From contig NC_135813.1 in NCBI RefSeq assembly GCF_964213995.1, positions 60,946,001-61,010,000 on the forward strand: a DNA stretch of 64,000 nucleotides, in the 5' to 3' direction. Positions 656 through 47,778 of the stretch are shown here, in pieces. The notes beneath the pieces were generated by a model, which saw only the letters and a program-made list of their open reading frames with translations, ran no database searches and was not told where the DNA came from. Position 1 is the first letter of the stretch. Each line of letters starts with the position of its first letter. A program made the translations under genes and the position numbers. The stretch is from Mustelus asterias. Its lineage: Eukaryota.

Positions 656-2210
656 TTACAAAAGGTGCAGTTTGGTAAAGGAATCCCTGGAATCTCGAAG
701 AAATACTGCTCGCCTCTCATTTGATATACACCTTGAGTGAATTGAATTTGTGTGGAATATAACAGCGGGACCGCTGGAAATCTCACATAACGACATCTCT
801 GTTTTAGTCGTCGGATTCTAGACGACTTGGTCATAATATAGCAAAACAGCTCATTTAAAATGCGGGACAGAATATCTTTAGTGATGTGACTGGTATTTTC
901 CTAACGTGTACATTGCATTGGAGTAAGCAGAACTACAGAATAAACTATCTAAGCAATCATCTATATACGGCAAGGAGATATGATAACATAATTCAAGGCG
1001 TTATTTATAAAAAATATATCGAATTGGTAAGCAGGGAAAAGGATTAAGGATGTTAGGTATCTTCATCAGAAAACTAGCATAAGTTTATAAAACACGAATA
1101 TATCCAATTTCCCTACAGATGCTGCAGGAACAGTTAAGAGTTTCCAGCAATTTCTATTGGTATTTAATATTTCTAATTTTAAACATTATTTTGTTTTTTT
1201 GGATTTAAATTTAAAGCTCTGTGTGGTATTAAAATATATACACCGTAACATCGCAGGTTATCACACGGTACACAACTCGATAATCTCATTTGGAATAGAT
1301 GGCAATCTCTTCAACCTGAGACAACTGAAATACTCACCTGAAGTTTCATAGGTGATGATAATGGAATTGCTATTTACCGATGTTTGTGCCCTTGTGCCCT
1401 ACTTTGAGCATGGCCTCAAATCATAGATTGTTTTTCAAAAACAACTGACGGCCATAGTCTAATCGTCGCCTTACGGAAGGCAGAGATACTCCACCAACCA
1501 CTGCCACCTCTGACTATCCACCAGCTAATCTGTCAATGACACAACTCTGAAGGTTCAGATAACTTTACCTTTCTCGGAAGCACAATCCCCAGAGATTGCT
1601 GCATTGACAGTGAGGTGGCAAATAATTACTGGTTAGTAATGCTGCAACTGCATGTTTATTATAAACATCGTGGGTTAATGTGAATTGTCGGCTGCGAATC
1701 GTGTACTCTATTGGACGCCCATGCTTGATTTAGAGTCGAATTGATCATAGTTGCTGTGTATCCTACTTGCACGGCTGGATGCCAGGGTAAATTGCTCCCC
1801 GGAGTCGGAAGCCGACTCGATTTTAGGCCGATTGATTAATTTGGGAATTTGCACTTTATATTTTAAATCCTCTCAGCATGGGGGCAAACGACACGGGAGC
1901 AAGTCAATCCAAACAAAGAGGCCCACACGCTTCTCTTTGTGTTAGGATCCATCGTAAGTACTGACTGATGCTGATTAGCGAGCAAATTGTTTTTGCGTCT
2001 GAAGTAAGTGCACTTATTTAACCTTTCCAAAATCTACCCAATCTTCCAAACAGTACAGTTCTCAAGTTCAATTTCATCTAAGCCATTCGGCGGAAATGTG
2101 GGAGTAGAACAAACTAGACAGAGTTAGACGATAAAGCTTTCCTGCCTGATATTGAAAGAAGAATCGAAACCGGAATATCACTTGATTGGCATCGCAAATA
2201 ATTTACTTAC

Positions 2211-2540
2211 TGCCCAGATTCAGCCTGGTCCCTTTACCAAAAGTATTAGCACCACAACAGTAATAATCAGTCGCATCCTCAGCTTGTACTTTTGTGATGG
2301 TTAAATGCATCTTGTTGCTCGATGTATCCTCAGAACCCATGAATCGATCAGGGATATTCGAAGGTTTACCGTTGTATTCACTCCAGATAAGCACAGGGAC
2401 GCTGCCAGGTTTCTGCCTGTACCAGCTCGTGTGCCAACTGTTCATGCTGCCACCGGACATGGAACAAGTGATCTTGACGTTTTCCCCCGGGGAGGTTGAG
2501 ATGGAGGCCGGCTGTGTCAGGACAACATCCGCGTTGGTAC
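2211..2540 (-). CDS. IGLV: Ig lambda-type light chain germline-joined VJ exon, cluster 1
   Basis: Acceptor TTTTCCAG at 2541, donor GTAAGT at 2210; 330 nt open frame DVVLTQPAS..ITC..WYRQKPG..DYYC-CGANT-FGKGTRLNLG; no RSS between V and J. Confidence 0.93.
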
Positions 2541-2679
2541 CTGGAAAATTAACATTATTTTTGTTCACGCACATTCGTTGCAACTGCGAGAATTAATTGT
2601 AATTCTGAACCGCCCCACCCGAGTGAGCAATAAGACAATGCAATATTGCAGACAGCATGTTGACTTCCGGTGTACTTAC

Positions 2680-2728
2680 TGCGGAGACAGAGCGCCAGCA
2701 CGGCGAGAAATCCAACCCAGGCAGTCAT
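2680..2728 (-). CDS. IGLV: IgL leader exon, cluster 1 (MTAWVGFLAVLALCLR)
   Basis: ATG at 2728, 49 nt, hydrophobic signal peptide, phase-1 GTAAGT donor splicing in frame to the VJ exon. Confidence 0.9.
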
Positions 2729-6714: not shown

Positions 6715-9117
6715 AGAAGACAGGCGAGTTATTCAAGTGAAAGCTCGGTCAAATACAATAGATTGTGAGGAGAGTTTTAAAGGACTGGCAATGAGATAGC
6801 ATAGGGAGCGACGATTGCATAGTGGTATTGTTATAAGACCAGAAAATCAGGGTAATCGTTGAATTCCAATAAAGCAGTTGGTAAAATTTAAATTCCGTCA
6901 GAAATATGGAATGAAATGTCTGATAGTGACCATTAAAGGATTATCAATAAAAGCTCAGCTAATTTGCTAATATGAGGGAAAGGAAACTAAAATAGTAAAG
7001 AGGCATTAAGAATTGAAATGCATCGGAATAGGGTGAATTGAAGCTCTGATTTATGATTCATAGGCCCAAAATAGATGGCTTCATGCTTTGAATTTGTCTG
7101 TCATTTGCCTTGGTCAATGTAACTGCCATCGCAGATCAAAGCTGGTGAGATCTGCAAACATGCACATACAACTCTCTACGCCTTCATTTTAGTCCTTAAA
7201 AGATGTGTCAAAAATTTGAAGTCCGGAACTCGTCCCGCAGGGGAACAAGTTGTCCTATTAAGAAAAACAACGAATGGACGATTCACTGCTACAGTCTCCT
7301 ATTTCCCGATATATTACAAACCCATATTTTCGATTGCATTATTTGATCTGGGGGTAGTTAGCTTACATTCTGCGCCAAACCAGGATTTAACCGTGCGAGA
7401 AACGCCATGTCAGTGTCCAGACGGTAGAAATATCTCCTCCAAATAAATTGTTGGGTGGGTGGGGCAGTTCGCCTTATTTTTAAACAGTGACTCCTAGTTC
7501 TAGTTTATCTCACAAGAAGAAACATCCCCTGCAGATCCATCCTGTCAATACCACTCAGCTTCTTATGTGTTTCAATAAAGGACTTGAACGCGGATCTTCT
7601 GGCCTCGAGGCAAGGACACGCTTAGCAGAGGAACGCTTTGGAGCAAAATTAACTTAATCATATCTTGGTATTTAGACAGAAGTGCGTTTCTATTTTGTTT
7701 GCCAAATGCTCCAGAAAATGGCACACAAAAATAGCAATGGGATGGAAGATGTTCTAAAATCTTCAGAAATCTTTTAGGGGGACCCAGGGTGTAATTGAAC
7801 TTGTTCCGGTTTAATTACAAATATTTGTCGTGAATCTGCATGATTTGGTTTTGAAAATATCTGGATACCTGTGATTAACTCAATTCCGCGCCTTCCGCCC
7901 AGCTAGAAAAACGCATTAAAGCGAAAATATGAACGTGAAATAGTTTATACTTCTCCAACTTGATGGCATTGAATGGTACAAATCAGTGTGCACTTGCCAG
8001 GAACATTTACTGCCCTTTAAACTCTGCGGAAATGGTTCAGTTAGTGCGACATTTTCGACATCGTGGTTCATGTTAGTTGCCTACTCGTAACTTCACCGGT
8101 AAGCAATGAATAACAATAATGCGCCGGTTAGTTTCGACATGTTAATATAAACTGTACATTTTAAAAAGTTGATGTTCATTTTGGAGATGGGGTATTGAAA
8201 TCATCAGCGATAAAATGGAAATAGTGGTTTGTTGCCTTACGGGGACGTTATGGATGGAGACTGATTCCTGCTTAATGTAGTTCAACATCTTGAAGGAAAC
8301 GAGAAAATATTAAGGGGGAGAGATTAGTTGCATTCGATTGCATTAGACTTCATGGGTAATTATAATCTCCGGGTGCTTGATTGATCACCGTCAAGAACTC
8401 CGGAAAGATAGTTCCTCAATTAGACACGATATTCTCTTTTGTGTTCCCTAAGGAGATTGAGGTATAGGAAGGTGTAAAGCTGAAACTCCTCTGCAGTTAA
8501 CGGTTGGATTCTCCGTTTCCCATCTTTCTCCTGTAGGCTTATAGCATTGTAAGAAATACCAGGCGTTGATCCCGCGTAGAGGTTACAACCACTGACAGAT
8601 TCGACCCTTCGATTCGGCTAATTTTATATGAATACTACCGTTGGGTCAGTATTCAAATTAATGCTCCTATTTGTAAAATGTATTCATTTCTGAGGAGAAA
8701 AAAAGTAACCCAGAACGAGGGGACACAGACGGCACTTTTTAATGGAATATTTGAATATTATGATAAATTGACTCTTCCATGTTGACTTTGTGGCAAGTAA
8801 CATTTTAAAAACGACTTGAATAGTTATTAGATTCCACCTTCAAACTATTTACTCGTTTGGCTCTTCGTTTTTATCAGTTGACAACTTTCTTACGTTCGAT
8901 CATCAAGAGGATATGTTAGAACAGGAATAGGGGCTCATTCAGCCGGTTCCGCCATTCTAATGGACCACCAAAATGAGGCTACCTGATACGCTGCAGGAAA
9001 GGATCTCCCAAGGCATGGTACATTGGCGAGAACATGCAGACGCTACGACAACGGATGAATGGACATCCGTCGACAATCACCAGGCAGGAGTGTTCCCTTC
9101 CTATCGGGGAACACTTC

Positions 9118-9257
9118 GTGATGTGGAAATGCCGGCGTTGGACGGAGTCTAACAACACCAGGTTAAAGTCCAACAGGTTTATGTGGTAGCAAACGCCACT
9201 AGCTTTCGGAGCGCTGCTCCTTCCTCAGATGGAGTGGAAATCTGCTCTCAAACAGCT
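9118..9257 (-). mobile_element. Inverted Penelope pLTR fragment inserted into the Penelope element
   Basis: Flanked by 12-bp direct repeat GGGGAACACTTC (9106-9117, 9258-9269); reverse complement of the pLTR end. Confidence 0.85.
9193..9235 (-). ncRNA. Minimal type I hammerhead ribozyme (Penelope-associated)
   Basis: Minus strand CCAU-CUGAGGA-A-GGAGC(AGC)GCUCC-GAA-AGCU-A-GUGG: core boxes, stem II, palindromic AGCU stem III, stem I CCAU/GUGG. Confidence 0.75.
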
Positions 9258-9644
9258 GGGGAACACTTCTGCAGTCAAGAGCATTCAGCCTCTGATCTTC
9301 GGGTAAGCGTTCTCCAGTGCGGCCTTCAGGACACACGACAACGCAGAATCGCTGAGCAGAAACTGATAGCCAGGTTCCGCACACATGAGGACGGCCTCAA
9401 CCGGGATCTTGGGTTCAAGTCACACTATCTGTAACCCCCACAACTTGCCTGGGCTTGCAAAATCTCACTAACTGTCCTGGCTGGAGACAATACACATCTC
9501 TTCAACCGATGCTTAACCCTCTCTCCACTCACATTGTCTGCACCTGTAAAGACTTGATTACCTGTTAAGACTCGCATTCCAACCATTATCTTGTAATTGA
9601 GTTTGCGTCTATATATGCCCTGCTTGTGAACTCAACTCTTCACT

Positions 9645-9676
9645 CACCTGAAGGGGCAACGCTCCGAAAGCTCGTG
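9645..9676 (+). ncRNA. Degenerate hammerhead ribozyme in Penelope pLTR
   Basis: CAC-CTGA-AGGGGC(AAC)GCTCC-GAAAGCT-C-GTG; CUGANGA box lacks 3 nt relative to the copy at 9193-9235. Confidence 0.55.
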
Positions 9677-10024
9677 CTATCAAATAAACCCGTTGGACTT
9701 TAACCGGGTGTTGTGAGACTACTTACTGTTGATTGTAGTAATCCAACAAAGGCTGTCGCCGCTGAGCGATATTAAATTTACATCGCAATCCGCGCAATTA
9801 GTTTGCAATCAGCATGAAAGGAAAATGGAAAGAAAACAAAATTGCGATCTTCAGGATTTAATGTAAATAAGAACGAATAATCTGTTTCATTGTACGAAAT
9901 GCAAGTTACCCTCGCATTGTATTGCATATGTTACATAGTTTTCTAGATCGACGGACTCTGTGTGATTTGTTAAGGTCCATTATGAAGCTGACGTTATACA
10001 ACATAGAACTTGCAACGTTATCAG

Positions 10025-11555
10025 TGTAGTGTTGAACTTGCAGGGGCCCTGGCAGACATATTTAAAATGTCAGTATTCACGGGGGAGGTGCCGGATGATT
10101 GGAGGGTGGCTCATGTTGTTCCGTTGTTTAAAAAAGGTTCCAAAAGAAATCCGAGAAATTATCGGCCAGTACGTTTGACGTCAGTGGTGGGCAAGTTATT
10201 GGAAGGTGTGATAAGGGATAGGATCTACAAATATTTGGATAGACAGGGACTTATTAGGGAGAGTCAACATGGCTTTGTGCGTGGTAGATCATGTTTGACC
10301 AATCTATTAGAGTTTTTCGAGGAGGTACCAGGAAAGTGGATGAAGGGAAGGCGGTGGATGTTGTCTACCTGGATTTCAGCAAGGCCTTTGACAAGGTCCC
10401 TCATGGGAGGTTAGTTAGGAAGGTTCAGTCGCTAGGTATACATGGGGAGGTAGTAAATTGGATAAGACACTGGCTCAATGGAAGAAGCCAGAGAGTGGTT
10501 GTGGAGGATTGCTTCTCTGAGTGGTGGCCTGTGACTAGTGGTGTGCCGCAGGAATCGGTGTTGGGTCCATTGTTGTTTGTCATCTATATCAATGATCTGG
10601 ATGATAATGTGGTAAATTGGATCAGCAAGTTTGCTGATGATACAAAGATTGGAGGTGTAGTGGACAGTGAGGAAGGTTTTCAAAGTTGCAGAGGGATTTG
10701 GACCAACTAGAAAAATGGGCTGAAAAATGGCAAATGGAGTTTAACGCGGACAAGTGTGAGATATTGCACTTTGGAGGGACAAACCAAAGAAGAACGTATA
10801 GGGTAAATGGTAGGACTCTGAAGAGTGCAGTTGAACAGAGGGATCTGGGAATACAGGTACAGAATTCCCTAAAAGTGACGTCACAGGTGGATAGGGTCGT
10901 AAAGAGTGCCTTTGGTACATTGGCCTTTATAAATCGGAGTCTCGAGTATAAAAGTTGGAGTGTTATGGTAAGGTTATATAAGGCATTGGTGAGGCCGAAT
11001 TTGGAGTATTGTGTACAGTTTTGGTCACCTAGTTACAGGAAGGATGTAAATAAGGTTGAAAGAGTGCAGAGAAGGTTCACAAGGATGTTGCCGGGACTTG
11101 AGAAGCTGAGTTACAGAGAGAGATTGAATAGGTTGGGACTTTATTCCCTGGAGCGTAGAAGATTGAGGGGAGATTTGATAGAGGTGTATAAGATTTTGAT
11201 GGGTATAGATAGAGTGAATGCAAGCAGGCTTTTTCCGCTGAGGCTAGGGGAGAAAAAAACCAGAGGGCATGGGTTAAGGGTGAAAGGAGAAAAGTTTAAA
11301 GGGAATATTAGGGGGGGCTTCTTCACGCAGAGAGTGGTGGGAGTGTGGAATGAGCTGCCGGATAAAGTGGTAAATGCAGGGTCACTTTTAACATTTAAGA
11401 AAAACTTGGACGGGTTCATGGATGAGAGGGGTGTGGAGGGATATGGTCCAAGTGCAGGTCAGTGGGACTAGGCATAAAATGGTTCGGCACAGACAAGAAG
11501 GGCCAAAAGGCTTGTTTCTGAGCTGTAATTTTCTATGGTTCTATGGTTCTATGGT
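10025..11555 (+). mobile_element. 5'-truncated CR1 LINE (RT domain, two frameshifts)
   Basis: [27 protein letters not shown] and KFADDTK across ORFs 10010-11471; tail (TTCTATGG)n. Confidence 0.95.
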
Positions 11556-11657
11556 TAGAAAGAAGACAATACATTGAATATGTAAATCGTCAAAGTTCGA
11601 CTGTTTGCATCTAATGCGCAGTAGATTTTCACACGTTGTTTCTACTTTTCTTTCCTG

Positions 11658-11980
11658 AGCCGCGAGCCCCTTCTGTGTTCGTCCTTCCGCCTTCATCGGA
11701 TCGAGCCAAAGAAAAGGGCAAGGTCACCCTGGTGCGTTTTATTAACGGCTTCAACCCGGGAGCTGCGGAGACTGAATGGACTGTAGATGGCAGCGTCAGA
11801 GGGAATGGGGTTGAGACCAGTCGGGTCCAGCAGGAGGCGGACAACACGTTCAGTGTGAGCAGTTATCTGACTCTGTCAGCCTCAGGGTGGAACTCACACG
11901 AATTTTACTCCTGTGTGGTTAAACGCGAGGCTCTAGCAAACCTACTTATGACAAACATAGAGAGGTCTAACTGCATCTGA
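11658..11980 (+). pseudogene. IGLC: Ig light-chain C exon pseudogene, orphan and inverted relative to the other clusters
   Basis: 323 nt like the other C exons; acceptor AG>TG at 11656-11657; first canonical Cys>Arg (CGT 11735-11737); KH>KR; no V/J recognised upstream on + strand. Confidence 0.88.
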
Positions 11981-12439
11981 TGCAAGAACCTTGGGTACTC
12001 TTCGTTGATACCATTAGTAAACTTCAATTGAGCAAATTTGAACTTAAAGGATAGACTTTATCAATTTTAGTTGCTCTACTTGAAATTATAAGAACAATGC
12101 CCAGCTCGTTTGTTTGTTTGATGCCATTGGGTTTACCTTGAAAATGTGCTGACTCTGCAGCCATTTCCTTTTCTTTCTGACATTGCACAGCAATACAAAT
12201 ATTGTTTCATTGTCTCAGTCGATGCTATTTTTTTGCTTTAATTATTATCGAATTGTTGATCGGTTTTAAACGTCCAAATCGCGAGGTTCTATTCTTTGTA
12301 ACCTTTTTTAAAGTTACAGAAAACCGTCAAACACTTGGTAGAAATTAGGATTTTATAAAATGGGTTCGCAATCACCTGGTAATGATATCACGTATCAAAA
12401 GCTGACGTGGATAAATTAGGTTTCTATATTGATTGAAGG

Positions 12440-19340: not shown

Positions 19341-20229
19341 GTTTGATGGTAATTGGTGTGAAAGTAAGAACAGTACCTGAGGAGAGATAGCAGTTAATGA
19401 TATCAACGAAAGTGGGGGCAAAAAAAGAACGTTGGATGGTCAGTAATTTAGTGGAAACCTGGTCAACATGGGTCTAATAGAGAAAATGAGTTGTGAAAGC
19501 GAATGAGGAGAAAAAGAAGGAAAAAAATCGATTCAACTATGATGCATGCGAAGTAGTGCTTCCTCAATTTACTCTTAAATAGCCACGCTCTAATAAAAGA
19601 GTGTGCCCCATTTTTCCTGGATTGTGTTATTAGTGGAAATAATTTCTCTGGACCTATCATATCACACTCGTTGATCATTTCAAATACTTCGATCAGGTGG
19701 ATAGAGTGCAAGGGAAGCCAACAATGAGTTGCCTTGTGTGATTTAGCACAAAAATGTTACTATTCCAATCTATATTCTCATTAAGGGTTTTAACTGCCTT
19801 CACTATAAGCACTCGGTTTAGCAAAGCCACACAAATTGTTGCTTCAGCCATAGCCTCATATCAATCAAGAAACAAGAGATCCTGAAACATTTTCGACCAC
19901 TTTTGTACAAAATACCAGTGTTGGAAACTCATGCCTTCTCAACTAGATGGTGCCACTGGCCGTCTGTGCAGAAGGCAGTTCCAAGCAAGGACAAAGTTCA
20001 ACATTTCTTGCTGAGCCAGTGTTCCTCCAGCTTATATTGGTATTAAGTATGCTTCCATTATGCAGCATGGTCCAAATAGTCAGAAATGCTCTTGACTCCA
20101 TCTATCCTCAGGTGCACTATTTTAAGATACTGCTTCCACAATCCTTGCTAAAATAAAAGTGCTTTTTAAAAATTACTGGATTGTAACTTTGGAAATATCT
20201 GAGTTTCTTTTAGTGTCTGAGTCAGGCAC

Positions 20230-20640
20230 TCTCATAGGAGATTCACTAGGATGTTCCCTGGGCTGTGGTTATTTTTCGTAAAGCAGAGAAAGCTGAGGTG
20301 TTATCTCATCGAGGTGCACAAAATTATGAACGATATAGATAGGAAGAAACCTTTCGCCTCAGTAGAGGGGTCAACAACCAGGGGACATGGATTTAAGGTA
20401 AGCAGCAGCAGATTTAGAGGAGATTTGAAGAAATTCTTCTTCAGCCAGAGGGTGATGGGATTCTGGAACTCCCTGTCTGCAAGGGTGGTGGAGGAAGGAA
20501 CCCTCACGGCATTTAATAATATCTTGATGAGGAACTGAAAAGTCATTGCATACAGGGCTACGGGCCAAGTGCTGGAAATTGAATCAGAATAGATAGGTTT
20601 TGGTGGTCGGCATAGACGGGAAGGGCCTCGTTGTGGGCTG
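20230..20640 (+). mobile_element. Old CR1 3' fragment (paralogue about 39520-39930)
   Basis: LIEV.KIM..IDR, TRGH.FK and FFSQRV..WNSL motifs. Confidence 0.75.
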
Positions 20641-22449
20641 GTTTCGCCCCTCCAGCTTCAAAGGGCAACACATAGCACGTTTAAGGAATCGCTCTTCAAA
20701 ATTGAACCCTTCAGCAATTGCTTCACCCTGATGAATCAGCCCGGTATCCTTTCATGATAAGAATATATCCGCGGCAATTGTACCGCCCCGTCCGCCACGG
20801 AATCAGAGGGAACGAGGGGCGGACAACGGAAATGTCCCTTGACCTCGCGCGGGAACTTCCGGTCTCGATCGAGCGAGGCAGTAAGAATGCCGCAGCACAG
20901 TGTGAGAACCTAAGTGCAGCACTCCAGATGTGATCTGATCAAGGCTGTAGACAACAGAAAGCATTATTTCATCACTTTTTAATTTCAATGCCCTTGTGAT
21001 AAAGGCAGGCATTCTGTTTGAGCTCTAATTTACCTTCTGATCATGAAGTTTTTAGTGACTTATGTACAGGAACACCCAAATCGCTTTGTTCATTCAAAAC
21101 ATCTCGCCTCTTAGCGTTAGGTAAACATTTCGAGCTGCTTGCTATCATATTTTGGTCACAGAATCACAGAATTCACTGGTCCATTCACTTAGTTTATCAA
21201 TGAAATTCTACCGAAGAGTCAGCCAGCTTTCGGTGCCTCCTTAACTTAAGCTGATCTACCAATGTGTTTATGAAGCTCTCTAACCCTCAATTTGATCGGC
21301 AAAATGATCTCGTTCCAGAAATGATCCTCAGGAACCTGTATTTGTCACATCCAGCCAATCAGAGAACAAAACCTTGATTAGTACTTTCTCTCTCCGACAC
21401 ATAACCAATTCCCGTGCTATACGTTCAATTAAATTATTTATTCGTTCTGTCGCTGGGTCTTTTTTATGTCTCCCTGTTTCGGACTCACTCACGGTGGAAA
21501 ATCTTTCTCTGCGTTCCCGTATCACACATTTTCCTAACATTAAAGCCGCCTATTACACCTCCTCATCCTCTCCTCAGAGAAAAGAGCGCAACATATTCAT
21601 TTTCCTGATAGGTACATCGTCCCAATTCCCGTAAAAATCTGGCAAGTAAGTTTCTGCACTTTCTCATGTCCTACAATATTATTTTTGAGGTATGTAGACC
21701 ATGGATGAGTACAATTCTCTAAAAGTCTAATAAACCCCCAGATGTTTTGTTTTGTTCTTCTGGAAGTGCACCAGCACCTTGTTTGCACTTTTTACCAACT
21801 GCCCAACTTCTTGCTATCTATAGCAATTTATGTCTTGCAAGCCCAAATCTAACTGAAGAAATAAAACAATAATATATCAAAGGGATGTCCTGTCGACTTT
21901 GTGATTCGTGTGAAGATGAAGTTTTTTTAAAAAACAGACTATGTTCTGAGCTGGTTTAAGTCAATGCCTCACTGAAAATGCATCTTGGCAAGTTGACTTG
22001 TTATTAAAGCGTCTGCTTCAGTATAATGATTACAGGGCCAATTAAAGCAATCGGATAGTTTATTTAAAAAATGACTTGCAGTACCAGAACCTGCATTACA
22101 TCTGGTGCATTAAAAAATGAGGCAGTGACAGAGTTTGTCCTGAATATTTGCAATCAGGTGGTTTAGAAATGTCTGCCCGTTTAATGTATTTTTGTAAATC
22201 TCGAGACGCAGTTCAGCCCTTTCATTACAATGGCAAAATGCAACTAGGTCCATTTTAAAAAAAATGTTGCCATATTACTTCATGGTGTTAATTTAATGTC
22301 ATCGATCGTCTCTTTGTTGCGCCTGGATATCATTGGCTTTAAATAAAATGTGCAGAATATCACAATGATATAGTCTCACTATTTAATTCAGTTTAGAATG
22401 TTGCCAGAGAGAGAACAACAGAACAACGGTCGACATACGGTACAATGAT

Positions 22450-22455
22450 TTTATT
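22450..22455 (-). terminator. Candidate polyadenylation signal AATAAA for cluster 2 (another at 22591-22596)
   Basis: AATAAA about 200 nt after the C stop; present in copy B near 41754. Confidence 0.5.
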
Positions 22456-22649
22456 ACACAGCGGTATCAATGACATTACACTGAAGCTTTGAACCATTCA
22501 GGGTGAACACAGTTAAATTGAAACTAAGGGAGTCAGCCGATCTGCTACAAACTTTGATGAAATGTTTGAAATGTTCCACTATTTGCGGATTTTATTTTGA
22601 AATGACATTTTACTAACGACAGAATACAAGAATGCATTAGATGCATGAA

Positions 22650-22972
22650 TCAGATACAGTTGGATCTCGAGATGCTTGTTTGAAGCGGGTTTGCTTGAGT
22701 CTCGTGTTTGACCAGACAGGAGTAAACCTCGTGTGAGTTCCACTCTGAGGCTGACAGAGTCAGATAACTGCTCACACTGAACGTGTTGTCCGCCTCCTGC
22801 TGGATCCGACTGGTCTCAACCGCATTTCCTCTGACGCTGCCATCTACAGTCCATTCAATCTCCGCAGCTCCTGGGTTAAAACCGCTCACCAAACACACCA
22901 GGGTCGCCATGTTCTTCGCTGTGATTTGATCCGATGAAGGCGGAAGGACAGACACAATGGGGCTCCGTGGAT
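22650..22972 (-). CDS. IGLC: Ig lambda-type light chain constant exon, cluster 2 (exon itself intact)
   Basis: Acceptor TTTTCCAG; PRSPIVSVLPPSSDQ..ATLVCLVSGF.P..W..FSVSSYLTL..W..HEVYSCLVKH..RSNCI-stop with both canonical Cys and penultimate Cys. Confidence 0.95.
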
Positions 22973-23122
22973 CTGGAAAATAGAGACAAATGATTGCACA
23001 TCCATTAAGAATCGGCATAAATGACTGAATCGTTGTTTCACCTTCTTCAAATTATTTTTGAAAATCGGTATTATTCTACAAGAATGTATAGATTTTATAT
23101 AGTTGGGTCTGATTGATGCCAA

Positions 23123-23290
23123 ATGCAAAAAGGCCGGGACTCTCGTTTCTGGAACACATACAACCTGAGAAGGTTTTCCTTTTTTCCCTGCACGGACAGG
23201 AACATGCAAATAAAATCTAATCTAAAGGAAATAGTGGACTTTGAAATATTAAAGTGAAAAATAAGACGGGAGGTTTATTGCATCCAGATG
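23123..23290. promoter_or_regulatory. Candidate J-C intronic enhancer, cluster 2
   Basis: ATGCAAAT 23204-23211, ATGCAAAA 23123-23130, kB-like GGGACTCTCG 23136-23145, CAGATG 23285-23290. Confidence 0.4.
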
Positions 23291-24859
23291 TAATCTGAGG
23301 CAACGCTGTCCGAGCCAACGCGACGTCGCGACCGCCGAGAATTTCAGAATAACGCCAATCACTCAGAATCTGGGTCAATATTGGAACGGATGCTGACCGC
23401 AACATTTCTATATTTTGCAACTCAAAAAACTCGATTCTAAACAATGAAATCGATTGTTTGCTTCTGTCACCATTTACACGTCTTTGACGCAAGTCCTCCA
23501 TACTGGACTGATATTTGGATTTGTGTACATTCTTTGCCACGGGTTCGCACGTTGCCCCGCCGAGCATAAATCTTAACAAATAACTCTCTGTCGCAATGGA
23601 AATATTAGGAGACATTTTTTGCGAGTGGAGTGTCACAAAAGATTTGCTACAGCAAAGAGGAAGAGCTTCTCACAAATATTGTAAACAATTCTAGCATATG
23701 ACAACATAACGTAACGAAACCCTTAAAAGGCCAGTAATAAAGCAAACATGTCCACATAATTATTTATCTCTCACACCTTGTCGCCAAAGCAGATGGACAG
23801 TGAGATCTTACTGTGCTGAGATAGGGAGCCATGATTCTGACATTTGAAGAATGATTCTACTTCACAAGCACTTAATTGTCAGGATGTTCTGAGGTCGTGG
23901 TCGGCGCCAAATCAATGCATGTTCGCATTTTCTTTCCTTTGTCATGAGTAGATATTCGCAAAGCTGAAAGGGCGTTGTATCAGAATCTTGTCTCTTTAAG
24001 TCACTTGTACCACTTAAGTTACCATCTATCACAGTCAATGGGGAAATGCTCAGTAAATACGTTGAGATATTGTAAGGTATCGAAGAAAGGGTTCAAATAT
24101 GAATATCCATTTCAAACTAAAAGGATAAGGCTGACCTTTTACAATTCGCCCTGACATTGAGGTGTTATGTCGGCTACAACAAGTGTGAGGTTTGTCGCTG
24201 TCGGTGCAAAAATCGATTGTCTTTGGAGCTATAAATTCGTCTTGTTTTTTTTGGAACGTAATTTGAATGTTGAAACTGAGTCGGCAGACAAATGCCGCCA
24301 GCCCTTATTTCAATGTTGGTATCGTCTTCCGGCGGCACCGAGAGTTTCGCTGAATAATCTCAAATGTCTGCACCGATGAGCAGGTGTGACGCTCAACTTC
24401 TATTTAAACGGAAGCGTACTTAAGTGAATTATTTTTACACCGGCATTTTCACCAGATGTGATTTCTTAAAGCAACAACTAAAATATTCAAGAGCATTTTT
24501 CTCCTTTTTGCCTCATGCTGGCTCATTTCACCGTAACATGGTCCAATAAACAAATGACTTGAAGAAGAAAATAAAAAATAAAGGAAAGGAAGATTGAGAA
24601 GGGAAGAGACCCTGACCACAATTTTCTAATCGTGTCGAGAGCGGGTTTGGCTCTCGGAGACAGGAAGACAGATGAAATTGTGAAAGGGCGAAAGGGGGGC
24701 AGCATAGTGATAGACCAGTGAGCCTAACCTCACTAAAGGGAGAACTAATGGAATAAACGCTTCAAAATCAAATACAGCGGTCACTGCTTTGCTAGCGGAA
24801 TATGTTACCCCGCGGCATGAATTGGTATTTTTGAGCGGGTTGCATGAGCGGTGAATGAC

Positions 24860-25740
24860 GGCAATATTTTTGGTAAAGTCTACATCGATTTTAGCAAGGC
24901 TCTTGTTAAGTTCACACATAGGTATGAACAGGTTGGATCTGAAATTGGCTCAGAGGCAGGAAGCAAAGGGTCCGTATATCAATGAGTGCTTCCATGATTG
25001 TTGTTAGATGATACACATTTGGCAATGTGTTTTGTGAACGAAGAAAGGTGGATAATGCAGGAAGACAACAATGGACTAGTCAGATAAGTGCAACTGCGGC
25101 AAATGGAATTAAATGCGGAAAAGTGTGAGGAACTGTATTTCAGGAAGGTCAACAAGACATGCGAGTACACTGTATAAATGGGACAATGCCGAGAAATGTA
25201 GAGAAACCGAGTGAACTAAAAATGCATTTCCACAGATCCTGAAGGCAGCTGAGCAACTGGATGTGGTCGCAAAGAAGGCATGTGAGGCAGTTACATTTAT
25301 AAGCTGAGGTATAGATTGTTAGAACTTGGTTATGCTGAAACTGTTGGAAATGAGCGTAGGAAAAATGTAATTGTACCAGAGCGAGTTCAGGGGAGATCGA
25401 GAGGGGTGTCGGCCGAAATGGAATATTTAGTTATAACTAAGTGTTGAATTGACCAGCGTTCTTTTCTTTGGAACAGACGAGGCTGAAGGGAGATCTAATT
25501 GAAGGCATAATATTCTGAGGTGTCTGGGCAGAATGGATAGGATAACAGTATTGCCAATGGTTGAGGAGTCGGTAAGAACGAGACTTGGATTTAGCATTAG
25601 AAGTAGAAGGTTTAGCGGAGACCCGAAGAGAATAGTTTCACCCAGAGGGTTTAGGGGATGTGGAACCTACTGCCGGAAAGGCTGTTAGTGGCAAATTAAT
25701 GGACAGTTAAACGCACATACAATGTGTAATCGAAAGGCTA
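24860..25740 (+). mobile_element. Old degenerate CR1 fragment in the J-C intron (paralogue about 44160-45040)
   Basis: GTCTACAT.GATTTTAGCAAGGC, CAAATGGAATT.AATGCGGAAAAGTGTGAG and AGGCTGA.GGGAGATCTAAT motifs. Confidence 0.7.
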
Positions 25741-27312
25741 ATGAATAAATGTTAGATTGTTCCTTGTGAACCAGTGCAGACACGATTGACCAAGTAGACT
25801 GTAATGATGTTGCAAAGATATATCATTCGATGATTCTGCGAATATATTATATTGCTTTCCTCCCTCACTGACGCACAGGGGCTACAATGTGCATATTTAT
25901 AAGGAACACTGCCGCAACTCCGGCAAGAACTTCCAAACCAGCCATGTCTCCCACTGGATGAACACACGGGCAGCAGATGCACGGCAGCACCACCAGTTGG
26001 TAAATCCCCATCAAGCCACACAGCATACCAAAGTAGAACTGTTTCGCCTTTCCTTCAATGTCGCTTGGCAAAAAATCTTAACTCCCTCCCTAACAACTCT
26101 GCGGTTTACCTATGACACATGGACGACATCGGTTTGAGAATGCGGCTCACCATCACCTTATCCATGGATATTTCGCGGGGGGCAATGAATGTTAGCTTTC
26201 TGATCACATCCCATGAATCAATAAAAATGGCAGTAATCCCCATGTTTTGTTCTATTCCTACTCACTGACAATCACAGAACCAGCAGCAGAGCTGAACGAG
26301 TCCACACCAATACTCAAAAACCTGACAACCTATTCCGAAACATTCCAAAGCAACTGGTGGGATAGGAAGAAAATGAACCGGAATTCCCGAGGGAAGCAAA
26401 CATTCGGCGCATCATTGACGTTTGTTACTATGTTATCCAGTAACAATCAGGATCGATTATTACTGGCGGAGTTCCCACAACAGTGTGGTTATTTTGGTCA
26501 TTTGTGATTAATGCGAAATGCTAGGTTGAGAATCTTGTACTGAACGGTTTTCAGTGAGTTTGGGAGTGAGTCGCACCCAGTCACCACACTATCCTTCCGC
26601 AGGCTGAATGCAAGAAAGATCTTAAAACACAATGTTGCTTTCAGTGGAATAAAGCAGCCTGGTGAGAACGTTTTGTATGTAATTCCAGCCTTCAATACCA
26701 GACTACAAGGGCAGTGTGTGAAACAGCCTGAACCACTATGTGGCTTTCCTACAATCATGGAATTATAGAGCACACAAGGTGGACGATCGTAGCTTGTAAA
26801 AAAACCTGCCCACATAGCTCATTTCCATGCCTGTTTTTTTCACTTTTGAAATGTTGAATATCGTCTTGCTAATTATAGTTCCGCTCGCGGTGTTCATACA
26901 GCTAGGGCACTCCACTCCCAAAACTGGCTGGGCGAAGGAAAACATCCCATCTTTTGAGCAATCCGCATTCAAATCATCTCCTTGCGCTGCCGACTGGATC
27001 AGATGGCTCAAACTTCTGGAAAGTCCCAGCAGATCAGACCGTAAGCTTCCAGTGAAATGAGCTTCACTCGTAATAAAATTGCTCCTTTACCCGATCCTAT
27101 AACTGCACACACTCCAGAAAATCGCCGAAGTTCTGAGCCCAGCTATCACTGCAATATCATTGGTTGCTGAATCAAAGATCCCCATAATAATAGTTTAGGA
27201 GCAATCAATTTGATTTGCCCTAATTCAATCCACCTATCCGACCGTTTCGAAGTACATTTCGTTATTTAGATAGCGTCACAAATGCTAGAGGACATTTAAG
27301 TGATGTACTTAC

Positions 27313-27659
27313 TGCCCAGGGTCAACTTAGTTCCTCTCCCGAAAATGAATCTATATGGACTGCTGAGCGTAGCACCACAGGAATAATCTGCAGCGTCTTC
27401 CGATTGCACGTTGGTGATGGTTAAATGCACCTTGTTACTCGATGGGTCCACAGACCCGGTGAATCGATCTGGAATACCCGAAGCTGTACCAGAGTACTGG
27501 TACCAAACAAGCACAGGGGCGCTGTCGGGTTTCTGCCAGTACCAGCTCGTGTAGGAGCTGCTAATGATGCCTCCGGACATGGTGCAAGTGATGGTGACGG
27601 TCTCTCCCGGTGAGGACGAAATGGACCCTGGTTGGGTCAGGACAGATCCGCAATTGTAC
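27313..27659 (-). pseudogene. IGLV: Germline-joined IgL VJ exon, cluster 2, frameshifted
   Basis: 347 nt; GATCTGTCC versus GATCCTGTCC in cluster 3 (1-nt loss near 27645) gives S-T-I-A-D-L-S-stop after splicing; YYC>YSC; downstream frame reads ..C-GATLSSPYRFI-FGRGTKLTLG. Confidence 0.87.
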
Positions 27660-27799
27660 CTGGTGAAATGCAAAGTATTGTTCGTCACACACTGTGAAAT
27701 GTTGAATATAGCTTACAATTCTGGTTCGTTAAAACACAAGCGGAAAAGCAGATAATGTGAAAAAAATGAGCATTACTTCTTGTTGACGCCCGTACTTAC

Positions 27800-27848
27800 T
27801 GTGAAAAGAGAGTATCAGTGCGGCGAGCACTCCAATCGATTGTGTCAT
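27800..27848 (-). CDS. IGLV: IgL leader exon, cluster 2 (MTQSIGVLAALILSFH)
   Basis: 49 nt, ATG at 27848, GTAAGT donor; belongs to the frameshifted gene. Confidence 0.88.
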
Positions 27849-27969
27849 GGAGAAGGTTTGGGGAGAGGAAGAAGGAAAATAAATCCTGATACGAATGCGC
27901 TTCTGAGTCCATTCCAACATCTCCTTAAAAAGATTCAAACACCGCAGGGCGAATGAATATTAACTACGT

Positions 27970-27977
27970 GTGCAAAT
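27970..27977 (-). promoter_or_regulatory. Mutated promoter octamer (ATTTGCAC), cluster 2
   Basis: Plus strand GTGCAAAT at the position where cluster 3 has ATGCAAAT. Confidence 0.8.
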
Positions 27978-28344
27978 TTTCTGTCACGTGATATTAGGCT
28001 GAAGATCTCCATTTCGGTATTGTCTGATATTTGCAGAATGCACACGTCAGCCATTTTGGAAAATAAGAAATATAAATCTCCCAAACCACACAATAGCATG
28101 CAAAATGGCTCAATACTCCCTCAAAAAAAGCAAACGGTGCGGTGAAACATAAAGTGATTAAATGGATCGTGGCTTGATCTCTGGAAGTCTGCAGATTACA
28201 ATAAATAAATGTTGAGGACAGCAAGCTGTTTAGTAGGTGTATCGTTCCTGGTGAATAAATTAGAGACTAAAAATGTGAGTTGAGATTTCATGTGCACATA
28301 GAGAGATGTAAGGGAATTGAGCACACGCATTATTGGCTTCTTGG

Positions 28345-28445
28345 TAGATAGATAGATATGTGGAAATGGGTGAACAGAAACAGAGATAGATAGATATAGG
28401 GATAGATAGACATAGATAGATAGACAGATAGATAGATAGAGACAG

Positions 28446-28486
<41 letters not shown>
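28345..28486. repeat. (GATA)n/(GACA) microsatellite
   Basis: Directly visible tandem repeat. Confidence 0.95.
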
Positions 28487-28829
28487 TCTGAAGTGAGTGA
28501 ATGATGGACAAGCCCCGAAGAACATTTTATTACCAACCTGGAATATGATTGAGGTGTCAAAACTGTCCACTCAACACTATTCAAGTGTTGGAAACCAATG
28601 GCATCCACAGTGAGTTAAGCCTTGGCAAAATGAAATGCTCTAGGAAACAGAGCTTTTCGCATGATTTTCGTTGTTGGATTTGAGGGGTACATTTGCTGTC
28701 ACGGGAAAGAATGAGTTTGAGAATGTCAATGCATTGGCCGACGGAGGAATGAGCTGAAAGTAGCAGTTTTTAAAAATCAGATTTCTGATGGCAGGTGACT
28801 CTCCCCCCAACAACGCTGGCCTCCCATCA

Positions 28830-28976
28830 CACAGTAAGAAGCCTCACAACACCAGGTTAAAGTCCAACAGGTTTACTTGTATTTGCTACCAAATAAACCT
28901 GTTGGACTTTAACCTGGTGTTGTGAGACTTCTTACTGTGCTTACCCCAGTCCAACGCCGGCATCTCCACATCATGA
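28830..28976. mobile_element. Penelope pLTR-derived palindromic insertion, specific to copy A
   Basis: 46-bp arms 28830-28875 and 28894-28939 with one mismatch; flanking repeat CTCCCATCRCAC; absent in copy B near 48120. Confidence 0.88.
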
Positions 28977-30289
28977 CTCCCATCGCACGACAGTATTGGA
29001 GAAGCCATCGTACAATGTTCCATTGCCCCCTCATTTGAAAAATTAAACAAAATCGGGCAAGCATTTTAAATGTTGATAACGTTAGCTTGTCACACACCAT
29101 CCCTCCATGTGTCCTTGAACAATTGTGAGAAGTAACATTTTGGTTATGCAGCTGAGGCGCACAGAGGACAACGAGAAGAAATAAACTAATTACTTCGCCT
29201 GGAGAGCTGACTGTCGCGGCTGCAGGTGCAGTTGCGTCAATATAAAGAATTCGAGAAGGTACATCGCAGAAGGCGGGCAATCAGCCCATCGCATCCATGT
29301 CGGTTCTGTAAAGGAGCGACCGAACTGGAATTTCTGCCTTGATCTTACTCCAGTTTTCGACATATTTTCCATCTTTTTGACGGTGATTGTTAAATCCTCT
29401 TCCGCTAGCCTTTGATCCAGTAGTCTCCAGATCATTAAGAGTCGGAACATATTTACCCACCACCACCCATCTTCTGTTCCTGTTCCCGGGTTATTTCAAA
29501 TGTTTGCCTTCCGGTGATCAAAGTTCCCGACATTTGAATCAGCTTCTACTTTCTCTAACCAACACCTTTAAGAACATCTTTATCAAACCTATTGTGCGGC
29601 TCTGAAGAGAACAACTTCAGGTTCTCTCGACTTTACACCTAACTGAAGACTTTTATCGCTGGAAACATGCTAATACACCTTCTGGCACATTCTCCAAGGC
29701 CTTGAAATACATTCCAAGAGTATTGTCAAGAACTGGACTCAATACTCTAACTAGGGTCGAACAACGATCAAAGGGTTCACATATTTGCTTGCATTTGTAC
29801 TCGGTTGTTGGAATTTTACTGACCCTCCTGTCGCTCGAGCGAAGGGTGGGGAAGGAATATTAAAATTGCTCCACACCGGGAAAATTTCCAAGCGGCGGTC
29901 AGGTAGAGGGATCAGGAACAGGTAATTAAAGTTGTTAGGTTGAAAGATATCGCAGGGTATTTACTGAAAGGATATGTCTCAGGTCCACGTCATGCAGTGC
30001 ATTCAGTACCCGGGGAGTGAGAGGCTTTAGGCCTTGCCTGTGGGTGGAATGTACAGAGTTGAGATCTGCAGTGTGGAGAGAGGGAGAGAGACAGATGCTA
30101 GTTCAGTTTAATGCAGCAAGACAGCAGGAGCGAGAGAAGAACCACCCTCATGGCATGTCAGCGGAATCGGAAAATGATTCGCACAGGGCCAAGAATGTAG
30201 GTTAAAGTTGACTGAAGACGGGACACAGCTGAAATAACAGACAGAAAGCGGGCCTACGTCATGGGGATGTTGAAGTCTCAATCGCTCCA

Positions 30290-32010
30290 ATGATTGCGTC
30301 CGACTGGAAGCAAAACTTTGCGATTAGTGACAGAGCTGAAGATTGGGAAGAATATAAAAACCGAAAAGGAATGACTAATAAAGTAATGACGAAGGAGAAT
30401 TTGGAGTATGAGAGAATGTTAGCTAGACATATTAAAATAATGTAGGAATTTCTATATGCTTTTAAAAAAGAAAATGCTCACTAAAATAAGTGTGGTTACT
30501 CTGGAGAAGGAGTATCGGAAATTCATAATACGAAATGAGGAAATGGCGGCAGAATTGATATATTTTCTCTGCCTCGCTGTAGAATACATAAATAATATCC
30601 CAGAAATATGTGCAGGTGAAGAGGTAGAAGGGAGCGAGGAACATAAAGCAATTACAACCACCAGGTCACTGCTACTGAGAAAACAATCAGAACTAAAGGC
30701 TGTCAAGTCGTTCGGACATGTTGGAGCTGAGTGGATGCAGAGGCGATGGGCCGATTGGCCTCCTTCTGCATTGTAATGATTTTATAATTCCATGAGATCG
30801 GGAAATAGCATATCTAACTCCTCTATTCAAGAAAGGAAAGGCAGAAAACATGTAACTACAAGCCAATTAGCCTAACATCTGTCAAAAGTTAAATGCTAGA
30901 ATCTATTATTAGAAGGTTATAGCATGACACTTGCAATTATGCAGAGCCAACATAGTTTTGTATAATTGAAGCCATACTTTACGAATTTGTTATACTTACT
31001 TGAGCAACTTATTAGTGGCGTGGATAAAGAGGAACCTGTAGACTTGGATTTCCAAAAAGTATTTCATAAGATACCGCTTCAAAGGTGCATTATGCAAAGC
31101 CTAATAGGAGCTTATCAAGTATGGGGGAACATTTATCACGAATCGAGGACTGGTTGGCTTACAGAAACAGAGAGGTAGGGTAATTGACCATTTTTTGAGG
31201 GAGGGGGGAGGGAACTGTAGCTGATGGTATATCACACAGATTACATCTGGGGCCTCAACTATTTTCAATTTATGGAAATGACATGGATGATGGGACGGAT
31301 TGATTCCAAATTTTTCTCACGACATTAATACAGGGGGAAAAGTAAATTGTGATGTTAGCATAAATGGTATACAAAGGGATTTAGATAAGTTACTGAGTGG
31401 TAAAAAGAAACAGGTGGAGTACAATGTGGTGAAATGCGAATTCGTCCACTTTGGCTGGAAAAATGGAACGCAGCAAATTGTTCACACGGAGATGAGAATG
31501 CAAAGATCTGGAGCACTGGGGGATCTGGGTGTCCTGGCACGTGATTCACGAAACTTTAGCATGAAGCTGTAAGTGACTCGGAAAGCAAATGCAATGTTGT
31601 CACCTATTGCAAGTGGGATGGAATATAAAAGTAGAGAAGATTCGCTGCAAATTTGTCGTGCTTTGGTGAGAACCCATCTGAAGTACTTTCCTGTTGGCCC
31701 AGAACGGACACAATAGCACCAGCAACAGTTCGGAGAAAGGTGCACCCATCAGATGAAAGGGATATCATTTAAGGAAAGGTTGGACAGGTTGGACCTGTAC
31801 CCATTAGAGTTTAGAAGAATTAGAGGTGATTCTGCTGAAACACATACTACCCTGAGGGGAATTGAGATGGTGAATGCTGAGGAAGTGCCTCCCCTCTAAA
31901 GAGACTAGAAGGAGGGGACATGAATTAAAATAAGAGGTTTTCCAATTGAGATGGAGATCAAGAGAATTTCATTCTCTGTGAGAGCCATTAGCCTGTGGAA
32001 CTCTCTTTAC
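30290..32010 (+). mobile_element. Old degenerate CR1 LINE (paralogue about 49430-54730, interrupted there)
   Basis: AACTACAAGCCAATTAGCCTAACATC, DLDFQK.F.KIP, YNVVKCEFVHFG and TTTAGAAGAAT.AGAGGTGAT motifs. Confidence 0.8.
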
Positions 32011-41400: not shown

Positions 41401-41953
41401 TGAGGCAGTGACAGAGTTTGTCCTGAATATTTGTAACCAGGTGGTTTAGAATTGTCTGCCCGTTTAATGTATTTTTGTAAATCTCAAGACGCAGTTCAGC
41501 CCTTTCATTACAATGGCAGAGTGTAACTAGGTCCATTTTTAAAACAATGTTGCAATTTTATTTCATGGTGTTAATTTAATGTCATCGAGCGTCTCCTTGT
41601 TGCGCCTGGATGTCATTGGCTTTAAATAAAATGTGCAGAATATCACAATGATATAATCTCACGATTTAAGTCCCTTTAGAATGTTGCCATTAATTGTTTT
41701 TGAGGGAAAGAGAGAGAACAACAGAACAACGGTCGAGATAACGGTATAATGATTTTATTACGCAGCGGTATCAATGACATGACACTGAAGCTTTGAACCA
41801 TTCAGGGTGAACACAGTTAAATTGAAACTAAGGGAGTCAGCCGATCTGCTACAAACTGTGATGAAATGTTTGAAATGTTCCACTATTTGCGGAATTTATT
41901 TTGAATTGGCACTTTACTAACGGCAGAATATAAGAATGCATTAGATGCATGAA

Positions 41954-42276
41954 TCAGATACAGTTGGATCTCGAGATGCTTGTTTGAAGCGGGTTTGCTT
42001 GAGTCTCGTGTTTGACCATACAGGAGTAAACCTCGTGTGAGTTCCACTCTGAGGCTGACAGAGTTAGATAACTGCTCACACTGAACGTGTTGTCCGCCTC
42101 TTGCTGGATCCGACTGGTCTCAACCCCATTCCCTCTGACGATGCCATCTACAGTCCATTCAATCTCCGCAGCTCCTGGGTTAAAACCACTCACCAAACAC
42201 ACCAGGGTCGCCATGTTCTTCGCTGTGATTTGATCCGATGAAGGCGGAAGGACAGACACAACGGGGCTCTGTGGAT
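41954..42276 (-). CDS. IGLC: Ig lambda-type light chain constant exon, cluster 3
   Basis: Acceptor TTTCCAG; 323 nt; PQSPVVSVLPPSSDQ..LVC..YSCMVKH..RSNCI-stop. Confidence 0.95.
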
Positions 42277-42426
42277 CTGGAAAGTAGAGACAAATGAGTG
42301 CACATCATTAAGAATCGGCATAAATGACTGAATCGTTGTTTCGCCTTCTTCATATTGTTTTTGAAAATCTGTATTATTCTACAAGTAATGTATAGATTTT
42401 ATGTAATGGAGTCTTATTGATGCCAA

Positions 42427-42594
42427 ATGCAAAAAGGCCGGGACTCTCTTTTCTGGAACACATACAACCTGCGAATGTTTTCCTTCTTTCCCTGCACGGA
42501 CAGGAACATGCAAATAAAATCTGATCTGAAGGAAATAGTGGAGTTTGAAATATTAAAGAGAAAAATTAGACGGGAGGTTTATTGCATCCAGATG
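42427..42594. promoter_or_regulatory. Candidate J-C intronic enhancer, cluster 3
   Basis: ATGCAAAT 42508-42515, ATGCAAAA 42427-42434, GGGACTCTCT 42440-42449, CAGATG 42589-42594. Confidence 0.4.
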
Positions 42595-45500: not shown

Positions 45501-46610
45501 GCTTTCTGATCACATCCCATGAATGAATAGAAATGGCAGTAATCCCCATGTTTTGTTCTATTCCTACTCACTGACAATCACAGAACCATCAGCAGAGCTG
45601 AACGAGTCCACACCAATACTCAAAAACCTGACAACCTATTCCGAGACATTCCAAAGCAACTGATTGGATAGGAAGAAAATGAACCGGAATTTCCGAAGGA
45701 AGCAAACATTCTGCGTATCATTGATGTTTGTTACTGTGTTATCCAGTTACAATCAGTTTCGATTATTACTGGCGGAATTCTCGCAGAAGTATGGTTATTT
45801 TGGTCACCTGTGATTAATGCGAAATATTAGGCTGAGAATCTTGTACTGAACGGTGTTCAGTGAGTTTGGGGGCCAGTGGGAGTGACCACACTATCCTTCC
45901 GCAGTCTCAATGCGAGAAAGATCTTAAAACACAATGTTGCTTTAAGTGGAACAAAGTAACCTGATGTGAACGTTTTGACTGTAATTCTAGCCTTTTAAAC
46001 CAGACTACAAGGGCGGCGTGTGAAACAGCCTGAACCACTATGTGGCTTTCATACAATCATGGAATTATAGAGCACACAAGGGGGCCGATCGTAACTTGTA
46101 AAAAACCTGCCCACTTAGCTTATTTCCATGCCTGTTTTCTTCACTTTTGAAATGTTTATCGTCTTGCTAATTATAGTTCCGCTCGCAGTGTTCATACAGC
46201 TAGGGCACTCCACTCCAACACTCGCTGAGCGAAGGAAAACATCCCATCTTTCTAGCAATCGGCATTCAAATCATCTCCTCGCGCTGCCGCCTGGATCAGA
46301 TGGCTCAAACTTCTGGACAGCCCCAGCAGATGAGACCCTAAGCTTCCAGTGAAATGAATTTCACTCGTAATTAAATTTTCCCTTAACACTATCCCATACT
46401 TAGACACACTCAAGAAAATCGCCGAAGTTCTGAGCCCAGCTATCGCTGCAATATCATTGGCTGCTGAATCAAAGATCCTCCATAAAAATATTTTAGGAGC
46501 AATCATTTTAATTTGCACCAGTTCAATCCACCGATCCGACTGTTTCGAAGTACATTTTGTTATTTAGATAGCGTCCTAAATGTTAGAGGACATTTAAGTG
46601 ATTTACTTAC

Positions 46611-46955: not shown

Positions 46956-47094
46956 CTGGTGAAATGCAAAGCATTGTCAGTCACACACTGTGAAATGTTG
47001 AATATAGCTTACAAATCAGGTTCGTTAAAACACAAGCGCAAAAGCAGATGATGTGAAAAAAATGAGATTATTTCATGCTGACGGCCGTACTTAC

Positions 47095-47643: not shown

Positions 47644-47708
47644 CATAGATAGATATGTAGAGATGGATAGAAATAGAGATAGATAGATATAGGGATAGAT
47701 TGATTTAC

Positions 47709-47778
<70 letters not shown>

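What the first reader, a model, noticed from the sequence alone, without database searches (positions are those of the whole stretch)
11759..11901. 143-nt near-identical patch inside otherwise diverged C exons (gene conversion or nucleotide-level constraint)
Manual alignment of the pseudo-C with the cluster 2 C gave about 29/101 differences in the 5' part, 5/143 in the central block (GAAE..SHE) and about 19/79 in the 3' part. Synonymous sites in the block are almost invariant but differ freely outside it. Protein selection alone does not explain this in a pseudogene. Inference: inter-cluster conversion homogenises the C core, or the block is a cis-element embedded in the exon.
Basis: partly seen in the sequence, partly recalled or inferred. 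Interest (0 to 1): 0.7.

Follow-up and report, generated by a model that had tools for sequence, protein, structure and literature searches.

The report
Gene-conversion patch in shark antibody pseudogene
A dead shark antibody light-chain exon matches one gene subfamily at both ends and another in its middle, likely because a neighbouring gene's sequence was copied over it by gene conversion, a known process that likely keeps the middle of these exons alike across the whole family.

Summary
In detail: the pseudo-C exon (11658-11981) differs from the cluster-2 C exon at 29/101, 5/143 and 19/80 sites. It is an orphan shark Ig lambda constant exon with no V-J, a dead acceptor, Cys>Arg and a LINE in its intron. 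Among 28 related exons in G000, its ends and non-coding flanks belong to subfamily A and its middle to the non-A genes. Diagnostic sites read A10-B7-A5 (p=1.2e-4), and read-derived contigs support both junctions. A cis-element is not supported: synonymous variants are as common in the block as outside it (1.19 vs 1.32 and 1.44 per site, 24 paralogues). Only fixed between-subfamily differences are depleted (p about 0.03). Across 116 chondrichthyan lambda proteins, V families cross species while C tends to group by species. Best reading: ectopic gene conversion, part of concerted evolution of lambda C exons. Caveats: one tree test does not reject a basal-A placement, and donor and timing relative to inactivation are unresolved. 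The process is known from TCR C-beta and shark UrIg2.

The parts
11759..11901 (+). Non-A-type patch (likely conversion tract). Informative core 11763-11829; outer limits 11759-11933; encodes GAAE..SHE of the C1-set domain
11658..11981 (+). Orphan pseudo-C exon of Ig lambda (L001); frame open, subfamily-A type at 11658-11758 and 11934-11981
   Evidence: Pfam C1-set E=4.5e-19
11656..11657 (+). Splice acceptor reads TG instead of AG; the orthologous stretch in organism B has the A
11735..11737 (+). First domain cysteine replaced by Arg, 24 nt left of the tract, not overwritten
10078..11553 (+). LINE fragment in the J-C intron, ending in TTCTATGG repeats (CR1-type 3' end; that label is recalled)
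   Evidence: weak RVT_1 hit E=2.2e-4, below Pfam cut-off; many copies end here in reads; A-intron homology on both sides
7908..10013 (+). Remnants of a subfamily-A J-C intron (7908-8692, 9726-10013; 67-76% identity); V and J absent
11982..12437 (+). Subfamily-A type 3' non-coding flank (p-distance 0.31-0.35 to A, 0.54-0.62 to others over 450 nt)
22649..22972 (-).
41953..42276 (-). C exon of cluster 3 (L013, subfamily B)
2209..2728 (-). Leader and joined VJ of the neighbouring cluster whose C exon (L019, just left of the window) is the best-fitting donor type

Best explanation
The exon is a mosaic, with subfamily-A ends around a non-A middle, likely made by germline ectopic gene conversion in which a 70-175 nt tract was copied from a non-A lambda C gene. 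Shown: the mosaic, its presence in reads, and normal synonymous mutability of the block. Inferred: because protein selection keeps the C exon as the only highly similar stretch between clusters whose introns, 3' flanks and V genes have diverged, recombinational repair can start in the exon core and stop where similarity falls. Repeated rounds erase fixed differences there. Inferred: the donor was of the L019 type (13 kb away, opposite strand) or the ancestor of the B array. The patch has no function in this dead exon; it is a record of a locus-wide process.
For: 22 A/non-A diagnostic sites read AAAAAAAAAA BBBBBBB AAAAA, permutation p=1.2e-4. Flank tree puts L001 inside A (UFBoot 100; with L006/L007, 92), block tree puts it with non-A (93). 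Block data reject the flank-derived clade L001+L006+L007, p-AU 9e-6; flank data reject L001 with non-A, p-AU 0.024. The block is 3 of 143 from the non-A majority while the 3' flank is 0.31-0.35 from its nearest kin. At 11766 L001 has the derived Ala, found in 17 of 19 carcharhiniform and 1 of 97 other proteins; the 2 exceptions are A-type genes matching G000. Family-wide: fixed synonymous A/non-A differences 2 of 14 in the block vs singletons 23 of 46, Fisher p=0.028. Further tracts L014-L019 and L019-L024; 77-nt perfect identity between L009 and L014, whose 3' flanks differ by 0.62. C core is closer to same-species genes of the other V family in 68 of 88 proteins, V in 0 of 88. Contigs of run X1 cover 11530-11782 (2 other letters) and 11856-12200 (0).
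Against: The block does not reject L001 as sister to all A genes (p-AU 0.15; 0.545 for the longer block). With strict A-vs-B sites the run test weakens to p=0.015 because 11825 is A-like. The non-coding tree leaves L001's place within A open. Most non-A states in the block are ancestral rather than shared-derived. No extant gene is a perfect donor (best 5 of 143). The pair scan's floor (p=2e-4; 14 of 285 pairs, 12 with L001) is just above a Bonferroni threshold and ignores rate variation. No contig spans 11783-11855 in phase. Protein-level grouping by species is as strong in the C flanks (81 of 88) as in the core, and could reflect selection.
Confidence: 0.85

Rival explanations
1. Retention: L001 is the earliest A branch and kept an older shared core, while the other six A genes gained the V/I-V-E-V and V-L-Q changes later and shared them. 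Conversion is still needed, but older and not aimed at L001.
For: p-AU 0.15 for L001+A in the block. A-type genes of other sharks carry the common core (P0042, P0045, P0048). No VLQ alleles at 11824-11829 in organism B contigs (0 of depth 87 in X4; single contig in X5).
Against: The G000 A genes hold the ancestral Val at 11766 and L001 the derived Ala. L001-A synonymous distance in the block is 0.20 but L001-B only 0.08, about the B-B value of 0.07, so L001's block shared an ancestor with B long after it left A. Exon flanks nest it with L006/L007.
Confidence: 0.08
2. The block is a nucleotide-level cis-element (splicing enhancer, RNA structure or DNA element) under purifying selection.
For: Other sharks' contigs are close to the block: organism B 2 differences in 125 nt, organism G few. 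These runs were found by shared words, so the closeness is partly selected. Synonymous distance to distant paralogues dips mildly in 11831-11932 (0.46-0.56 vs 0.61-0.91).
Against: Synonymous variants per site 1.19 in the block vs 1.32 and 1.44; singletons 0.72 vs 0.47 and 0.66; no invariant run of 8 nt in 24 or 28 exons. pS 0.54-0.58 to L026-L028 and 0.33 between A and E. A cis-element would not switch L001 to subfamily-specific non-A states.
Confidence: 0.03
3. Assembly chimera between an A-type and a B-type copy.
For: The middle 11783-11855 is collapsed with paralogues in short-read contigs; X1 may be the assembly's own sample.
Against: The block matches no assembled gene better than 138 of 143 and has a private base at 11886. 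X1 contigs cover both junctions; a second sample, X3, matches 11879-12100 with 0 and 11562-11721 with 2 differences.
Confidence: 0.02
4. Protein-level purifying selection on the conserved strands before inactivation, plus chance.
For: Non-synonymous distance is lower in 11831-11932 in most between-group comparisons.
Against: A-B pairs under the same constraint differ at 16-24 of 143; synonymous diagnostic sites 11824 and 11827 switch too.
Confidence: 0.02

Closest known systems
Exon-limited gene conversion of TCR C-beta1/C-beta2 (PMC2188480, abstract read; PMC2685407, passages read, citing Rudikoff 1992 by title)
   Same: Constant-region exon homogenised within a species by conversion between paralogues.
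   Different: Here about 25 dispersed miniclusters, a sub-exon tract, a pseudogene recipient and V families shared by sharks and rays.
Within-species gene conversion of shark UrIg2 C domains (PMC12227049, passages read)
   Same: Shark Ig-type C1 domains homogenised by conversion, grouping by species.
   Different: UrIg2 repeats are tandem exons of one gene; this is between separate lambda clusters up to about 1 Mb apart and on both strands.
Cartilaginous-fish IgL lambda (type II, NS3), germline-joined VJ-C clusters (PMC4279169, passages read)
   Same: The host family: joined VJ then one C exon; best named protein hits are shark lambda chains at 92-95%.
   Different: This copy has lost V-J and its acceptor; the passages read mention conversion only for V regions.
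Protocadherin cluster gene conversion (Noonan 2004; title seen in a reference list, text not held; content recalled)
   Same: Part of an exon homogenised among paralogues, the rest divergent.
   Different: Different family; not an antigen receptor.

Membership tests
Ectopic gene-conversion tract | Internal segment of a paralogue's type between flanks of own type | tested here: met
   A10-B7-A5, p=1.2e-4; flanks A-type on both sides
Ectopic gene-conversion tract | Incongruent trees for tract and flanks | tested here: inconclusive
   Nested placement rejected, p-AU 9e-6; basal-A placement not rejected, p-AU 0.15
Ectopic gene-conversion tract | Synonymous sites switch with non-synonymous ones | tested here: met
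   11824, 11827 (and 11932) switch; pS 0.08 vs 0.34-0.38
Ectopic gene-conversion tract | Non-reciprocal transfer with an identifiable donor | tested here: inconclusive
   No reciprocal product among 28 exons; no perfect donor, L019 alone fits both 11809 and 11825; a short double crossover gives the same product
Ectopic gene-conversion tract | Present in the DNA, not an assembly join | tested here: met
   Contigs at both junctions in X1, right side also in X3; middle unphased
Exonic cis-element under nucleotide constraint | Reduced synonymous variation across paralogues | tested here: not met
Exonic cis-element under nucleotide constraint | Invariance across distant species | tested here: inconclusive
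   Only runs sharing exact words could be laid; amino-acid changes in the core exist across orders
Shark IgL lambda (type II) C exon | C1-set domain closest to lambda chains | tested here: met
Shark IgL lambda (type II) C exon | Germline-joined VJ upstream and intact splice acceptor | tested here: not met
   Lost in this copy; joined VJ seen in A relatives L029-L032, so it is a pseudogene of the family

The most novel reading that the evidence does not exclude
Chondrichthyan lambda loci run a long-lived, locus-wide conversion system that sweeps lineage-specific C-exon cores across V families older than the shark-ray split, keeping one heavy-chain-pairing surface for all lambda chains. In this lineage the six A clusters have partly escaped the sweeps and are diverging into a distinct C-lambda subtype, and the pseudogene records where the tracts start and stop.
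Probability: 0.35. Interest if true: 0.55.

Novelty: new member of a known kind. Interest (0 to 1): 0.32.

Why it matters
The patch itself is functionless. It matters as a clean marker that shark light-chain miniclusters, usually treated as independent units, likely exchange C-exon sequence in the germline. C-based trees would then understate the age of lambda subfamilies, and species-specific C clades need not mean species-specific expansions. The partial escape of subfamily A gives a testable case of a C subtype forming.

Tried and rejected
Cis-element, assembly chimera and protein selection alone were tested and rejected. AU test with all A genes as the held clade gave no rejection. Timing of conversion against inactivation: private changes 2/143 in the block vs 10/181 in flanks, p=0.07; suggestive only, and organism B's orthologue could not be phased across 11703-11903. 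GC content does not single out the block (0.54 vs 0.54 and 0.45). No RNA holder was listed for the pseudogene stretch; this says nothing on expression. Search for V/J remnants upstream found none. Five paper look-ups were not held, among them the shark IgM isotype paper (Lee 2008) and the four-isotype IgL paper (Criscitiello 2007), which may already discuss C-exon exchange. PMC2192082 held only a stub; passages of PMC2193156 and PMC2435157 did not address C-exon conversion. No supplements were read. No structure prediction was run, so the pairing-surface idea is untested.

Full report
Setting. The window lies in a shark Ig lambda locus. It holds joined VJ exons at about 2209-2538, 27311-27673 and 46609-46960 (all minus strand) and three C exons: 11658-11981 (+), 22649-22972 (-), 41953-42276 (-). 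The cluster-2 C is a C1-set domain whose best named matches are shark lambda chains at 92-95%. A search of G000 gave 28 related exons, all on contig C13: 25 close ones and 3 distant ones (L026-L028). A review states that shark lambda genes are germline-joined V-J-C clusters (PMC4279169, passages).

Observation. This is far beyond chance, also with a sliding window (0 of 200,000). The + strand exon (L001) is a pseudogene. Its acceptor reads TG, its first Cys is Arg and a conserved His is Arg. A LINE fragment sits about 100 nt upstream. No V or J remains, although J-C intron homology does.

L001's flanks belong to a subfamily, A (L002-L007, + strand, 61.17-61.32 Mb), with its own V type. Its intron remnants are 67-76% identical to A introns. 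Its 3' flank is 0.31-0.35 from A and 0.54-0.62 from the rest, and the non-coding tree (10 of 28 loci) puts it in A with 100/99 support, without resolving its place inside A. In the exon, 22 sites separate A (at least 5 of 6) from non-A (at least 15 of 18). L001 reads ten A, seven non-A, five A (p=1.2e-4). With A versus the ten B genes only, the pattern has one interruption at 11825 and p=0.015. The left edge lies between 11758 and 11763. The right edge is loose, 11830-11933, because A and non-A have no fixed differences there.

Trees. L001 nests in A in the flank tree and joins non-A in the block tree. The block rejects the flank-derived nesting (p-AU 9e-6 and 0.003 for two clades), and the flanks reject a non-A placement (0.024). 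The block does not reject L001 as sister to all A (0.15). That leaves a retention reading open on topology alone. Distances argue against it: synonymous distance in the block is 0.08 to B, equal to B-B (0.07), but 0.20 to A. Polarity at 11766 also argues against it: the Ala is found in 17 of 19 carcharhiniform proteins and 1 of 97 others, the two exceptions are A-type, and L001 has the Ala. Six of those 19 proteins match G000's own genes closely, so they are not independent.

Cis-element test. Among the 24 other close exons, synonymous variants per site are 1.32, 1.19 and 1.44 (5', block, 3'), singletons 0.47, 0.72 and 0.66, and no invariant run reaches 8 nt. Fixed synonymous A/non-A differences are 7, 2 and 5; against singletons, Fisher p=0.028. 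New mutations arise normally while fixed differences are scarce, which is what repeated exchange gives and constraint does not. This family-wide signal is modest, and the block was chosen beforehand from one pair.

Beyond the pseudogene. A GENECONV-like scan of 285 of 300 pairs (15 with under 8 differences skipped) put 14 at the permutation floor; 12 involve L001, the others are L014-L019 and L019-L024. L009 and L014, 0.86 Mb apart with 3' flanks 0.62 apart, share 77 identical nt. Among 116 lambda proteins, two V families about 49% apart occur in both sharks and rays. For 88 testable proteins, V was closer to the same family in another order in 88; the C core was closer to the other family in the same species in 68, the C flanks in 81. 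So concerted evolution affects the whole C at protein level over deep time; this part could include selection and was not tested on DNA.

Reads. X1 has contigs at 11530-11782 (2 other letters) and 11856-12200 (0). X3, a second sample, has 11562-11721 (2) and 11879-12100 (0). The left contig reaches only 24 nt past the junction, under the tool's 31-nt rule, but with one difference at 11612 at most one of three non-A states can differ; its end point suggests the second is 11772 (inference). Organism B has an orthologous stretch with the acceptor A (11554-11702, 7 differences; 11904-12200, 12). Its core is collapsed into one contig, 11773-11897, depth 81 against 5-6 for single-copy pieces, 2 differences from L001 (similar in X5). 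No VLQ alleles appeared in those runs, but absence in contigs proves nothing.

Mechanism. Shown: mosaic, real in DNA, no synonymous constraint. Inferred: germline ectopic conversion seeded in the conserved exon core. L001's block differs from the non-A majority only at 11772, 11825 and 11886; L019, the neighbour 13 kb away on the other strand, alone matches both 11809 and 11825 but has three differences of its own. The donor is therefore an L019-like or ancestral B gene. Whether L001 was alive then is open (p=0.07).

Known cases. Conversion of TCR C-beta exon 1 in mice (PMC2188480, abstract; PMC2685407, passages) and of UrIg2 C domains within shark species (PMC12227049, passages) are the same kind. 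Seven searches (listings only) showed no paper on shark lambda C conversion, but two likely papers were not held and no supplements were read. The scan had no note near this place; one note on the same genome concerns L026-L028.

Verdict. Real, explained, a new instance of a known process. Interest 0.32, mostly for the locus-wide pattern and the partial escape of subfamily A.

Noticed in passing
window about 27640 (-), V exon of cluster 2: One base fewer than cluster 3 at the start of V shifts the frame after the leader intron, and the YYC motif reads YSC. Cluster 2 may itself be a pseudogene, or this is an assembly slip in a short run.
   Followed up: partly
window 2209-2538 (-): Intact-looking joined VJ of the L019 cluster with a very short junction and an extra Cys after YYC.
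   Followed up: no
L047 (G000:C13 about 61410460-61411050) with C exon L027: A lambda-like cluster with V and J apart and a 12-spacer RSS beside J, although the review read says all lambda genes are joined. An earlier scan note reports the same.
   Followed up: partly
window 20021-31806 vs 39309-50973; G000:C13 60.97-61.16 Mb: Tandem array of about ten 19.5-kb B clusters at about 90% identity, which separates L001 from the other A genes.
   Followed up: partly
L002-L007 C exons: Subfamily A has a distinct C (KEK-KATLVCF, V-L-Q) whose core is not seen in A-type genes of other sharks in the protein set.
   Followed up: partly
L005, L014, L022, L023, L025 C exons; V in L032, L033, L039, L044: Several other clusters look broken: frameshifts or a stop in C; stops, truncation or a 1.5-kb interruption in V.
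   Followed up: no
L014 vs L020-L022, around window-equivalent 11926-11934: L014 has the B-type T-Q where its close relatives have A-L, a possible further small conversion patch.
   Followed up: no
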